From the IMG/VR virus record IMGVR_UViG_2695420763_000009: a stretch of 11,058 nucleotides of DNA. One strand, given 5' to 3'. Below, in pieces: positions 6,001-9,000 of the stretch (its first letter is position 1; each line of letters opens with the position of its first letter). A program made the position numbers. The stretch comes from a virus. Lineage: Duplodnaviria > Heunggongvirae > Uroviricota > Caudoviricetes.

Positions 6001-9000
6001 CGTAATTCGTGGTGTGAAAGTACCAGGCGGACGGCTTGGAATAAAAATCACCGAACTGGAGAACGCATGAACGCCACAATTCAAACGATACCAGAGCTTC
6101 TTATCCAGACACGAGGCAATCAGACCGAAGTGGCGAGGATGCTTTCCTGCGCAAGAGGAACAGTGCTCAAGTACAACCGAGACAGCAAAGGCGAGCGTCA
6201 TGTAATAGTTAACGGCGTCCTGATGGTGAAACAGGGCAAGAGGGGAAGACGATGAGACTCGAAAGCGTAGCTAAATTTCATTCGCCAAAAAGCCCGATGA
6301 TGAGCGACTCACTACTGGCCACAGTTTATTGGTTTTCGTAACTGAGTCATTTTATTATTTTATTGCAACTTTTAATCTTTTATAGTGCGAAATAAATGGA
6401 GCTGGCATTCATTTCGCACTTTATGTTTTTGTTGGACTTATGTTATTTTGATTGAATTCAATTCAGTTAAAAAAAGAAGGCGATTGCTCCATTTATAAAT
6501 GAATAGTCATCCCCTGTCTTGAATTCTGATGTTACTTTATTAAATGCTAGTGTGAAGGCTACAGGTGCATACCCAATTGTTGCGCCAACTTGATATTCAT
6601 CAACAGTTTTGTTTAGCGATACTGTTGTTTGTTTCGTCTGTATTGTTTTTCCTTCGAGAGTATAGTTGCGATTGACATCTCGTCTTTCCATACCTGCAAA
6701 AATCTTGTATTTGAATCCGCTTGTATCGGACATATGCATTAAACCACGGGGAGCCAGCAGACCAAAGCCATTATCCGAATTGAAGGTTTTATCATTACCA
6801 ATGGCAATGGTTGCGCCATATGCTACATATTGAAATAAGTTTCCAGTAACAGCAGAAACTTCAGGGTATAATCCAACATTAGCACCTAAAATATCCATAC
6901 TTGGTGTCATGGATAGCATCCCTTTTACAGTATAACCGTAGCGATTCTCTATTTGATCATCCCATGCATGATATTTTTCTGCCCCAATAATCTCATGAGC
7001 TTTATTTTGTACTTTCTGACCGCCTGCGTCGGGGCCAACAACACCTATGTCAGTACCTAATCGATAGCGAATCCAGTCATTCGCAAGGGAGTTCCATTCA
7101 ATACCAGTGTGAGTGTATGCACTAAAAGCTCTGTCTCCAGTTACAGCTGTGTTGTGTCTTTTATTACTGCCTGATGGAGAGTAAATATCTTGCGCAATAT
7201 GGAGAGATAATTGGCTCGAGTCTGAGATATCGTGGCTATATCCCAGAAATAAGCCTTGTGAGTAATCATCTCTGTTTTCATGTTTATTGCCATAAATATC
7301 ATTAAGTATTGGTTGAAACTTCCCTGCATCATCATTTGCTAATGATAATGCAAGGCTGTTCGCGATAGCTGAACACGTGGTAAATGACAGAGCAATAAAG
7401 ACGCCAGCGATGACACTTTTTTTCATATGTTATTGTCTTCCTTTTTTTTGAATGGCGCGCGTATTTTACATACATGAGTTTGTAATACAAGGTGCGTAAT
7501 CAATATGATGTTTTATAATTGCGTGAGACAATTGATTTATTCGTTTTTTATTGCGGTTTTTATTATCTTTTAATGTAACGGTGTTTTTATTAAGTGTGTT
7601 TGCGTGGTGTTTTATGTTTTTTTATAATTTTTATTTTATTAAATTTAAAAGCATTAGTAATGGCTATTCTATATAGCAATATAAGAACTGTTACAAAAAA
7701 AGGGGGGGCAATTACAGGTAGTTATGGATGATGAGTGAAACAGATATTGGAGAACCGGGGAATGAATGATGTCTGAGTCTTATATATCAGAACTCCTTCG
7801 CTGTCGCTGGGGGCTCCTGTGCTTATGTCGTTTCCCCGATTCGGTTTTGAACGATTACCGAATGTTGAAGAATTATGCCAAAATATAGAAAGGATTTACT
7901 GCATGAATACCCAATATTTACAGTATGTTCGTGAGCAACTTATGGCAGCTACTGCTGACTTGAACGGAGCAACGAAAGGCCAGCTCGAAGCCTGGCAGGA
8001 GCATGCACAATTTGATACTGGTACATACAAACGAAAGAAGCCGCGCATTCTGGATGTGGTAACTGGCAAGATGATTACGCTGGATAATACGCCGACTTCC
8101 GGTAAGCAGTCGTACGCAAAAGGTTCATCCATTGCTTTGGTCAGCCCGGTTGAATTCTCAACCTCTTCATGGCGCCGCGCGGTTTTGTCTCTCGATGAAC
8201 ATCAGAAAGCATGGTTGCTTTGGTGTTACAGCGAAAGCGTTCGATGGGGGCATCAGGTCACCATAACGCAATGGGCATGGAGCGAGTTTAAAGATTTGTT
8301 AAGTAACAGAAAAATTGCAGGTAAGACACTGGATCGCCTGAAGACGTTAATCTGGCTGGCTGCACAGGATGTGAAGAGCGAACTTGCAGGGCGTGAGGCC
8401 TATGAATACCAGACACTGGCATCATTGGTGGGAGTGACAACAAAAAACTGGTCCGAGACATTTACTGAACGCTGGGTTGCAATGAAGCACATTTTTCTAC
8501 AGCTTGATAGTGATGCTTTATTGCTTGTGACGAGAACACGTTCAAAACAAAAGGCAGCATTTTTACAGCAAAATATTGCAAAACTGGATTAAAAGCCATA
8601 TACTTCATGCAAATTTGGTATGTTGTAAAAAATGTATAAACCCGCTGCCGAGTGGGTTTTTTTTATGCCCTGAGTTGTACTTGTACGGTAAACATGCTGG
8701 CTGCTATGTAATAGAGTTTTTTTAGCCTGTAACCTCTTGACGGCATTGAATTGCTTTTGTTATGAGTTGTAAGCCAATGTTATCATCTTGTATTGGGGTG
8801 GTTATGAAGGATGGTGCGCTGCTCAGGAGTTCTTCACTTTTTATTGCCTACATGGGATGCCTTGGATGGGGGAGTGCTTATTTCTATGGATGGGGTACTT
8901 CTTTTTACTACGGCTTCCCATGGTGGATTGTAGGTGCTGGTGTTGATGATGTTGCCAGAAGTTTATTTTTTGCAGTTATCGTCATTGCTATATTTCTTAT

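What the first reader, a model, noticed from the sequence alone, without database searches (positions are those of the whole stretch)
7903..8592. Candidate replacement late regulator without a zinc motif, with ambiguous start and a Cys-rich upstream ORF
A 229-257 aa protein sits where a Q antiterminator is expected, downstream of the truncated lambda Q, but lacks the Cys4 zinc finger of lambda Q and lies about 1.2 kb upstream of the pR'-like promoter with a membrane-protein gene in between. It may be a Q of a different family, or unrelated cargo. A 39-codon Cys-rich ORF (7769-7888) with a reasonable RBS ends just before the best-supported start, suggesting a leader peptide or coupled translation.
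Basis: inference. Interest (0 to 1): 0.5.

Follow-up and report, generated by a model that had tools for sequence, protein, structure and literature searches.

The report
Phage-82-type Q late-gene antiterminator
The gene is an ordinary, already annotated late-gene antiterminator of the phage-82 (Q82) family, identical to the Q protein of classic phage 434, and its target promoter sits at the end of the gene, not 1.2 kb away.

Summary
The ORF at 7903-8592 is real and is a Q antiterminator of the Q82 family. It matches Pfam PF06323 (E 1e-91) and PHROG 304 (E 2e-108). It is 100% identical to the 'Q82-like' Q of phage 434 and to RefSeq WP_001097238.1. The module occurs in about 600 of 5,426 complete E. 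coli genomes.

Three details need correcting.
1. The start is the ATG at 7903 (229 aa). The 257-aa form is an old EDL933 CP-933K annotation.
2. The 'Cys-rich leader ORF' is a YlcG-family nin-region gene (NF033498). Its cysteines are not conserved, and YlcG also precedes a Q21-family Q in K-12 DLP12.
3. The cognate late promoter is not at ~9768. A phage-82-type pR' overlaps the Q stop codon: -35 at 8576-8581, -10 at 8599-8604, inferred +1 at 8611, sigma-70 pause element TGGTATGTT at 8616-8624, pause U at 8635, terminator at 8638-8664. This unit follows Q in relatives down to 47% identity.

The 9768-9976 unit is a divergent STnc100-like sRNA gene found behind all three Q types. Verdict: already known, low interest.

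The parts
6252..6311 (+). Remnant of lambda-type Q: the first 20 codons, followed by unrelated sequence. It marks the left junction of the replacement module.
   Evidence: The translation MRLESVAKFHSPKSPMMSDS equals the lambda Q N-terminus. The DNA is identical to lambda up to about nt 60 of Q and identical to phage 434 throughout. RefSeq and the 434 record annotate it as an incomplete antiterminator.
6467..7426 (-). LpxR-family lipid A deacylase moron, lying between the Q remnant and the new Q module.
   Evidence: PF09982 E 7e-40; annotated the same way in RefSeq and in phage 434.
7766..7888 (+). YlcG-family small protein (39/40 aa).
   Evidence: NCBIfam NF033498 at 48 bits against a cut-off of 30, E 7e-13. 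phrog_2705 E 2e-12. RefSeq WP_077249715.1 is named 'YlcG family protein'. It is 68% identical to K-12 YlcG, and the Cys positions are not conserved.
7890..7894 (+). Shine-Dalgarno sequence (AAGGA) for Q, 8 nt upstream of the ATG at 7903.
   Evidence: Read from the sequence. GAAAGGA is conserved in all close relatives, while the in-frame upstream 'extension' varies and carries stop codons in two loci.
7903..8592 (+). Q82-family late-gene transcription antiterminator, 229 aa.
8576..8604 (+). Late promoter pR' of the phage-82 type: -35 TTGCAA (8576-8581, inside the last codons of Q), a 17-nt spacer (the expected position of the Q-binding element), and -10 TATACT (8599-8604).
   Evidence: Promoter scan. 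Conserved at the same position after Q in relatives of 87-100%, 73%, 59-65% and 47% identity. For 82 pR', the published templates place the QBE within -31 to +30 and the paper describes Q-binding elements generally as lying between -35 and -10 (PMC4914094).
8611..8636 (+). Initial transcribed region. Inferred +1 is A8611 (an AAA start). The sigma-70-dependent pause element TGGTATGTT is at 8616-8624 (extended -10 TG at +6/+7, hexamer at +9..+14). The expected pause is at +25/+26, that is U8635/A8636.
   Evidence: The register matches the published description of 82 pR': hexamer at +9-14 with an extended -10, G at +24, U at +25, pause at +25/26 (PMC5001585). It differs at +15-17, which is GTA here and GCC in 82. 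The +1 and the pause are inferred, not measured.
8638..8664 (+). First intrinsic terminator (tR'-equivalent): a 9-bp hairpin plus U8. It would end the unmodified transcript at about 52-54 nt.
   Evidence: Terminator scan. RNA fold -15.8 kcal/mol, z -3.1. Annotated as a terminator in phage 434. Relatives have non-homologous terminators at an equivalent place.
8777..9520 (+). Membrane-protein moron of unknown function, inside the late-operon leader.
   Evidence: phrog_1521 E 2e-154; no Pfam match. Annotated as a putative membrane protein in phage 434.
9606..9764 (+). TciB-like DUF3927 small membrane protein.
   Evidence: PF13064 E 3e-14; phrog_1470 'TciB-like'.
9775..9979 (+). Divergent STnc100-like sRNA unit.
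   Evidence: Rfam RF02076 at 41.4 bits (gathering score 47), E 6e-7, over the full-length model. The syntenic unit after tciB scores 120 and 107 bits in phages Evi and JLK-2012. Terminator fold -17.7 kcal/mol, z -3.5.
10063..11058 (+). First long late-leader gene: a DUF1737 + SASA sialate O-acetylesterase (NanS-p-like). It runs off the end of the window.
   Evidence: PF08410 E 1e-15 and PF03629 E 2e-13. In phage 434 it is followed by the holin, endolysin and spanin genes.

Best explanation
The ORF at 7903-8592 encodes a Q82-family late-gene antiterminator, the same protein as phage 434 Q.

Proposed mechanism, by analogy with phage 82 Q:
1. RNA polymerase with sigma-70 starts at the pR' promoter that overlaps the Q stop codon (-35 at 8576-8581, -10 at 8599-8604, +1 near 8611).
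2. Sigma-70 re-binds the extended -10-like element TGGTATGTT (+6 to +14), and the complex pauses near +25 (8635).
3. Q, bound to its site in the promoter spacer, joins the paused complex and becomes a stable subunit, helped by NusA.
4. The modified polymerase reads through the terminator at 8638-8664. Without Q, that terminator yields a leader RNA of about 52-54 nt.
5. It then reads through the terminator at 9950-9976 and the later ones. This expresses the membrane-protein and TciB morons, the NanS-like esterase and, beyond the window, the lysis and structural genes.

The gene arrived by module replacement. A cassette of LpxR, YlcG, Q82-type Q and pR' replaced lambda-type Q after its codon 20.

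What is shown: family membership, identity to 434 Q, the conserved promoter/pause-element/terminator anatomy, and the start codon. What is inferred: the +1 position, the pause, Q binding and readthrough.
For: Family and identity:
- PF06323 E 1e-91 over the full length, and phrog_304.
- PF06323 is the 'Q82 family' in PMC9388147.
- 100% amino-acid identity to phage 434 Q in a region with 98.7% DNA identity. Phage 434 was propagated lytically for sequencing, and its lysis genes lie 3.7 kb downstream of Q behind three annotated terminators.

Promoter, pause element and terminator:
- The composite motif TTGCAA-N16-18-WATAYT-N10-13-TGNTAT occurs once in the window, with 0.00 expected by chance.
- It occurs once per locus, always about 14 nt before the Q stop, in 83 of the 94 loci fetched by that point.
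- The same layout is seen in Klebsiella, Enterobacter and Cronobacter relatives at 47-65% identity.
- The register agrees with the published features of 82 pR'.
- What follows the unit differs between relatives: holin, tRNAs or morons. So Q and pR' travel together as one module.

Fold:
- Foldseek's top hit is also AlpA.
- This agrees with PMC9371919.
Against: - No experiment on this protein or on 434 Q was found. The transcription start, the pause and the Q-binding element are inferred from phage 82.
- The 434-type initial transcribed region has GTA instead of GCC at +15-17. In 82 pR', mutating GCC to AAA shortens the pause about five-fold, so pausing may differ here.
- The structural model has only moderate confidence: mean pLDDT 66, residues 1-86 poor, and one good model out of five.
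I matched published verbal descriptors, not the sequence itself.
- The host prophage could be cryptic even though this gene is intact.
Confidence: 0.93

Rival explanations
1. One reading: the Q protein acts at the promoter at ~9768 and the terminator at 9950-9976, 1.2 kb downstream, and the membrane-protein gene is inserted between the regulator and its site.
For: TTGACT at 9768-9773 with an A/T-rich -10 region, followed about 180 nt later by a strong terminator, looks superficially like a lambda pR'/6S unit. The terminator at 9950-9976 almost certainly is read through by Q-modified polymerase.
Against: - The unit is a (sub-threshold) STnc100-family sRNA gene.
- The homologous unit lies after tciB in phages whose Q is PF03589 (Evi) or PF06530 (JLK-2012). 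It therefore does not co-vary with Q type.
- Lambda's own pR' region does not match it.
- It has no counterpart of the conserved 82-type promoter and pause element, which occurs only at 8576-8621.
- Q82-family genes in other phages lack this unit altogether.
Confidence: 0.04
2. The protein is the 257-aa form that starts at GTG 7819 and overlaps the small ORF, which is then a spurious ORF or a leader.
For: The frame is open from 7819. The original EDL933 annotation (AAG55112.1, CP-933K) used this start.
Against: - The Pfam profile begins at residue 4 of the 229-aa form.
- Relatives of 47-88% identity align from residue 1.
- In those relatives the upstream gene (rusA or YlcG) overlaps the ATG as ATGA.
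- In close relatives the GTG is lost, and two loci have in-frame stops in the 'extension'.
- A conserved GAAAGGA Shine-Dalgarno sequence precedes 7903.
- The overlapped frame encodes a recognised family, YlcG.
Confidence: 0.03
3. The gene is unrelated cargo or an inactive relic with no role in late control, and the small upstream ORF is a regulatory leader peptide for it.
For: The prophage in the window is a mosaic, with imm21-like immunity and a 434-like right arm. It carries a dead lambda Q stub, so decay is conceivable. YlcG function is unknown.
Against: - The protein is full length and identical to that of a plaque-forming phage.
- The family assignment is unambiguous.
- YlcG is a stand-alone conserved family. 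It is found upstream of a Q21-family gene in DLP12 and is absent before other Q82-family genes. Its conserved residues are R/W/L/DYR/LKN, not Cys.
Confidence: 0.03

Closest known systems
Phage 434 Q (GenBank OL657226.1, CPT_434_67, 'transcriptional activator/anti-terminator, Q82-like')
   Same: The 229 aa are 100% identical. The whole module is the same: lambda-Q stub, LpxR, YlcG, Q, terminator, membrane protein, TciB, terminator, SASA esterase. DNA identity is 98.7%.
   Different: The window has a phage-21/HK140-type immunity region rather than imm434. The 434 record annotates the terminator after Q but no late promoter.
Phage 82 Q (82Q) and its 82 pR' promoter; Pfam PF06323, the 'Q82 family'
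   Same: Same Pfam family over the full length. The promoter overlaps the end of the Q gene. The start is AAA, an extended -10-like pause element lies at +6..+14, and G24/U25 sits at the pause site. The leader is short and terminated. No zinc finger.
   Different: The window's Q is about 73-88% identical to the E. coli subgroups whose leaders fit every published 82 pR' descriptor. Here the hexamer is TATGTT rather than TATTTT, +15-17 is GTA rather than GCC, and the terminator hairpin starts only 3 nt after the pause site. Activity has not been tested.
Lambda Q (PF03589) and Q21 (PF06530)
   Different: No sequence match to either Pfam family at E <= 0.01. There is one Cys, so no Cys4 zinc finger. 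The expected pause is at +25 rather than +16/17 as in lambda.
AlpA of Pseudomonas aeruginosa (PDB 7xyb chain G), a Q-like antiterminator
   Different: 11% sequence identity, a different host and different target genes. The model's N-terminal 86 residues have low confidence.
YlcG of E. coli K-12 DLP12 (b4509; NCBIfam NF033498)
   Same: The upstream ORF is 68% identical and sits in the same position, between the nin genes and Q.
   Different: It lacks the last ~6 residues. It is followed by a 14-nt gap with a Shine-Dalgarno sequence rather than an ATGA overlap. The Q that follows belongs to another family (Q82-type here, Q21-type quuD in DLP12).
STnc100 sRNA (Rfam RF02076)
   Same: The unit at 9775-9979 matches the full-length model and has the same synteny, after tciB and before the esterase or lysis genes. 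STnc100 copies in EDL933 prophages are transcribed (PMC5331693).
   Different: The score is below the gathering threshold (41.4 against 47). Its ends and promoter are not mapped here.

Membership tests
Q82 family of lambdoid Q antiterminators (Pfam PF06323) | Significant full-length match to the family profile | tested here: met
   306.8 bits against a cut-off of 25, E 1e-91, residues 4-219 on profile positions 1-216 of 220. phrog_304 E 2e-108. 2,681 homologues were found at E <= 1e-5, and the 120 listed are all PF06323.
Q82 family of lambdoid Q antiterminators (Pfam PF06323) | Gene located at the end of the nin region, immediately upstream of the late promoter and the late/lysis genes | tested here: met
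   The gene order ybcO-rusA-ninH-(lambda-Q stub)-lpxR-ylcG-Q is in the window. The downstream order, terminator-morons-esterase-holin-endolysin, was read in the E. coli O26:H11 prophage and phage 434 records.
Q82 family of lambdoid Q antiterminators (Pfam PF06323) | Cognate pR' with an extended -10-like sigma-70 pause element at about +6..+14, set for a pause at +25/26, followed by an intrinsic terminator | tested here: met
   The sequence features are present at 8576-8664 and conserved across the family. The register agrees with the PMC5001585 descriptors, except that GCC is GTA at +15-17. Only the sequence was tested, not the pause.
Q82 family of lambdoid Q antiterminators (Pfam PF06323) | Binds a QBE in the promoter, loads on the paused complex, and confers terminator readthrough that is stimulated by NusA | not testable with these tools
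   This needs in vitro transcription or a reporter assay. It has been shown for phage 82 Q only (PMC4914094).
Q82 family of lambdoid Q antiterminators (Pfam PF06323) | Q-like fold: an N-terminal RNAP-engaging segment and a C-terminal helical DNA-binding domain | tested here: inconclusive
Q-lambda family (Pfam PF03589) | Profile match and a Cys4 zinc finger in the DNA-binding region | tested here: not met
   No PF03589 hit at E <= 0.01. There is a single Cys in 229 residues (read from the sequence). Only the 20-codon stub at 6252-6311 is lambda-type.
Q21 family (Pfam PF06530) | Profile match | tested here: not met
   No PF06530 hit. Control proteins quuD and JLK-2012 Q do hit it.
YlcG family (NCBIfam NF033498), for the upstream ORF | Profile match above the curated cut-off, and a position in the nin region upstream of Q | tested here: met
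   48 bits against a cut-off of 30. 68% identical to K-12 YlcG. Named YlcG in RefSeq and in the 434 record.
STnc100 sRNA (Rfam RF02076), for 9775-9979 | Covariance-model score at or above the gathering threshold | tested here: inconclusive
   41.4 bits against 47, E 6e-7, over the full-length model. The syntenic homologues score 120 and 107 bits, and the window is 69.7% identical in DNA to the Evi copy.

The most novel reading that the evidence does not exclude
The 434-type late-control unit may be a functional variant of 82 pR'. It lacks the GCC discriminator that sets pause strength in phage 82, and its terminator hairpin begins only 3 nt after the pause site. Unmodified transcription would therefore give a constitutive RNA of about 52-54 nt, which might act as a trans-acting prophage sRNA as StxS does. 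Q-modified polymerase would also override a second, independent sRNA gene (STnc100-like) embedded in a 3.7-kb moron-filled late leader. That would couple sRNA output and moron expression to induction.
Probability: 0.15. Interest if true: 0.35.

Novelty: already known. Interest (0 to 1): 0.1.

Why it matters
There is little here for discovery. The gene, its family and its start are already annotated in RefSeq and in the curated phage 434 genome.

It has practical value for annotation. Q82-family genes carry their late promoter and sigma-dependent pause element across their own stop codon. A promoter-plus-terminator unit further downstream, here an STnc100-like sRNA gene, should therefore not be mistaken for pR'.

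The unit is common in EHEC and EPEC prophages. It is present at 80% coverage or more in 618 of 5,426 complete E. coli genomes, including O26:H11, and the same protein is the CP-933K Q of O157:H7 EDL933. It controls expression of prophage morons and lysis genes in these strains.

The Q82 family remains the only Q family without an experimental structure, and 434 Q would be as good a target as 82 Q.

Tried and rejected
- Sequence search of the PDB with the protein found only chance hits (E 0.12 and 0.4). No Q82-family structure has been solved.
- Supplements of the two Roberts/Hochschild papers, which should hold the 82 pR' sequence, are not held. A full-text search for the inferred 82 leader string found nothing relevant. 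PMC3058920 is not held. I therefore matched verbal descriptors rather than the sequence.
- I tested whether the 9768-9976 unit is a lambda-type pR'/6S RNA. Lambda's own pR' region gives no STnc100 hit, and the pairwise alignment is meaningless. Rejected.
- I looked for the name 'phage 82' among cluster members to fix the exact identity to 82 Q. No such name is on record.
- NCBIfam has no model for the Q protein, the membrane protein or the esterase.
- The EDL933 record NC_002655.2 is not in the collection, so I could not map the published STnc100_1 coordinate.
- The CII-site/paQ idea from the 434 annotation: the site is a perfect TTGCN6TTGC, but about 1.3 such sites are expected by chance. It lies in coding sequence and is not conserved outside the E. 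coli members. Left as an aside.
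Full report
**What is there**

The window is the early-right/nin/late-regulator part of a lambdoid prophage. The gene order is:
- a cI-like repressor, cro, cII, O, P and ren;
- ninB, a methylase and ninE;
- YbcO (5421-5711), RusA (5708-6070) and NinH (6067-6255);
- a 20-codon stub of lambda Q;
- an LpxR gene on the minus strand;
- a small ORF;
- the ORF in question.

The ORF ends at 8592. It is open in frame from GTG 7819 (257 aa) and has an ATG at 7903 (229 aa). The 229-aa product has one cysteine, so it has no Cys4 motif.

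**What it is**

- The protein matches Pfam PF06323 'Phage_antiter_Q' at 306.8 bits (cut-off 25), E 1e-91. Residues 4-219 cover profile positions 1-216 of 220.
- It matches PHROG 304 'anti-termination protein Q-like' at E 2e-108.
- Yin et al. (PMC9388147) name PF06323 the Q82 family. It is one of three unrelated Q families, alongside Q-lambda (PF03589) and Q21 (PF06530).
- The protein gives no hit to PF03589 or PF06530. Control Q proteins from K-12 DLP12, phage JLK-2012 and phage Evi do hit those families.
- It is 100% identical to the Q of phage 434 (OL657226.1, CPT_434_67). The depositors annotated that protein as 'Q82-like', with the note that close homologues use the downstream MNT... start.
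- RefSeq calls it 'bacteriophage antitermination protein Q', WP_001097238.1.
- The 2.7-kb module is present at 80% coverage or more in 618 of 5,426 complete E. coli genomes.
- The 257-aa form is the 2001 EDL933 annotation for prophage CP-933K, AAG55112.1.
- The window as a whole is 98.7% identical to phage 434 over 73% of its length. Its immunity region is phage-21/HK140-like.

**Start codon**

Several lines point to 7903:
- The Pfam profile starts at residue 4 of the short form.
- Relatives of 47-88% identity align from residue 1.
- In those relatives the upstream gene (rusA or ylcG) overlaps the ATG as ATGA.
- Among 84 related loci, the GAAAGGA Shine-Dalgarno sequence and the ATG are conserved. 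The in-frame 'extension' changes freely, loses the GTG, and carries stop codons in two loci.
- The overlapped frame encodes a recognised protein family.

**The upstream ORF**

The ORF at 7766/7769-7888 is a YlcG-family protein:
- NCBIfam NF033498 at 48 bits against a cut-off of 30;
- phrog_2705;
- RefSeq WP_077249715.1.

It is 68% identical to K-12 YlcG. The family's conserved residues are R, W, L, DYR and LKN. The three cysteines of this copy are not conserved.

In K-12 DLP12, ylcG precedes quuD, which is a Q21-family protein. In several phages a Q82-family gene is preceded directly by rusA, with no ylcG. YlcG is therefore an independent nin-region gene, not a leader peptide tied to this Q. 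Ordinary operon-style translational coupling remains possible but is unremarkable.

**Where Q acts**

This is the main correction to the finding. Directly at the 3' end of the gene lie:
- a -35 TTGCAA (8576-8581, inside the last codons of Q);
- a 17-nt spacer;
- a -10 TATACT (8599-8604);
- an AAA start (inferred +1 = 8611);
- TGGTATGTT (8616-8624);
- a hairpin-plus-U8 terminator (8638-8664).

Bird, Strobel and Roberts (PMC5001585) describe 82 pR' as follows:
- a -10-like hexamer at +9..+14 with an extended -10;
- a GCC discriminator at +15-17;
- an AT-rich stretch from +18 to +25;
- G at +24 and U at +25;
- pausing at +25/26.

The leaders after Q in the 73%- and 88%-identity E. coli subgroups read AAATCTGATATTTTGCC(A/G)AT(G/T)TTGTA. 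They fit every one of these descriptors.

The window's leader is AAATTTGGTATGTTGTAAAAAATGTA. It keeps the AAA start, TG at +6/7, a TATGTT hexamer at +9-14, and G24/U25/A26 in the same register. It has GTA rather than GCC at +15-17.

The composite motif occurs once in the window, with 0.00 expected from shuffles. It occurs once, at the same offset from the Q stop, in 83 of the 94 loci fetched by that point. Klebsiella, Enterobacter and Cronobacter relatives at 47-65% protein identity show the same layout: a -35 in the last codons, TGnTATnnT about 6-14 nt after the start, a G/C-rich discriminator, and a terminator.

What follows this unit differs between phages: a holin, tRNA genes, or morons. 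Q, promoter and pause element therefore move as one module. Q is in the canonical position relative to its promoter.

**The downstream 'pR'-like' unit**

The region 9775-9979 matches Rfam STnc100 (RF02076) over the full model, at 41.4 bits (gathering score 47) and E 6e-7.

The homologous unit lies just after tciB in phage Evi, where it scores 120 bits, and in phage JLK-2012, where it scores 107 bits. Evi's Q is PF03589 and JLK-2012's Q is PF06530. A partial match to its 5' end also follows the small gene after tciA in PPyecE.

So this unit does not co-vary with Q type. Lambda's own pR' region does not match it. STnc100 copies in EDL933 prophages are transcribed in uninduced cells (PMC5331693).

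The unit is best read as an sRNA gene embedded in the late leader. Its strong terminator (9950-9976) is a second barrier for Q-modified polymerase, not the site where Q is recruited.

**Mechanism**

This is inferred from phage 82 (PMC4914094, PMC5001585):
1. Sigma-70 holoenzyme initiates at pR'.
2. [quoted passage not shown] 4. The complex ignores the terminators at 8638-8664 and 9950-9976, and later ones.
5. This expresses the membrane protein, TciB, the NanS-like esterase (PF08410 + PF03629) and then the lysis and structural genes.

Phage 434 was propagated by liquid infection for sequencing (PMC9119081). It carries exactly this arrangement, with the holin 3.7 kb downstream of Q behind three annotated terminators. 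This is indirect evidence that the system works.

**Fold**

An AlphaFold2 model built from a shallow alignment of 28 sequences (73-100% identical to the query) reached mean pLDDT 66. Residues 87-222 are confident and the N-terminus is poor.

- Foldseek's top hit was also AlpA, at E 0.32.
- This agrees with Wen et al. (PMC9371919). They reported that an AlphaFold model of 82Q resembles AlpA and lambda Q apart from the zinc finger.
- No Q82-family member has a solved structure.

**Origin**

The stretch 6252-6311 is identical to the first 20 codons of lambda Q, then diverges at the same point as in phage 434. A cassette of LpxR, YlcG, Q82-type Q and pR' therefore replaced lambda-type Q. This is typical lambdoid mosaicism.

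**Verdict**

Everything essential is already annotated in public records. The apparent oddities have ordinary explanations: the distance to the promoter, the ambiguous start, and the Cys-rich leader ORF. Novelty: already known. Interest: low.

Noticed in passing
window 9775-9979 (+): A sub-threshold STnc100-like sRNA unit (Rfam RF02076, 41.4 bits against a gathering score of 47). It lies between tciB and the NanS-like esterase. Strong STnc100 copies sit at the same syntenic spot in phages Evi and JLK-2012, whose Q proteins belong to other families.
   Followed up: partly
window 8599-8668 (+); L003 3706-3785 (+): Q82-type pR' leader regions give weak but full-length matches to Rfam sRNA models from Salmonella: STnc240 (28 bits, E 0.21) and isrJ (30 bits, E 0.049). 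This hints that those 'sRNAs' may be terminated late-promoter leaders.
   Followed up: no
window 8567-8580 (-): TTGCAATATTTTGC is a perfect CII-binding consensus (TTGCN6TTGC) on the minus strand and overlaps the pR' -35. The phage 434 record annotates it as paQ. It is conserved in the E. coli members but not in the Klebsiella, Enterobacter or Cronobacter members, and about one such site is expected by chance in the window.
   Followed up: partly
window 6252-6341 (+): Stub of lambda-type Q: 20 codons identical to lambda, then 9 unrelated codons and a stop. The recombination junction is the same as in phage 434.
   Followed up: yes
window 6467-7426 (-): An LpxR-family lipid A deacylase moron (PF09982, E 7e-40) is inserted between the Q stub and the new Q module. 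A 2026 preprint lists LpxR, together with a PF03589 Q, as the conserved neighbours of PasD sRNAs.
   Followed up: no
window 8777-9520 (+) and 9606-9764 (+): Two morons lie inside the late leader. One is a multi-pass membrane protein with no Pfam family (phrog_1521). The other is a TciB-like DUF3927 protein. A promoter-like site, TTGTTA-18-TATCAT with an extended-10 TG (8757-8786), precedes the first.
   Followed up: no
window 1-3200: The immunity and replication region resembles phage 21, HK140 and lambda imm21 (94.8-97.2% identity), while the region to the right of about 1585 resembles phage 434. The prophage is therefore an imm21-type/434-type mosaic.
   Followed up: partly
window 8611-8664 compared with L093 (Cronobacter phage phiES15): Both leaders are compact. 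In the window the terminator hairpin starts 3 nt after the expected pause site. Leaders of the 82-like subgroups are about 70-90 nt.
   Followed up: partly
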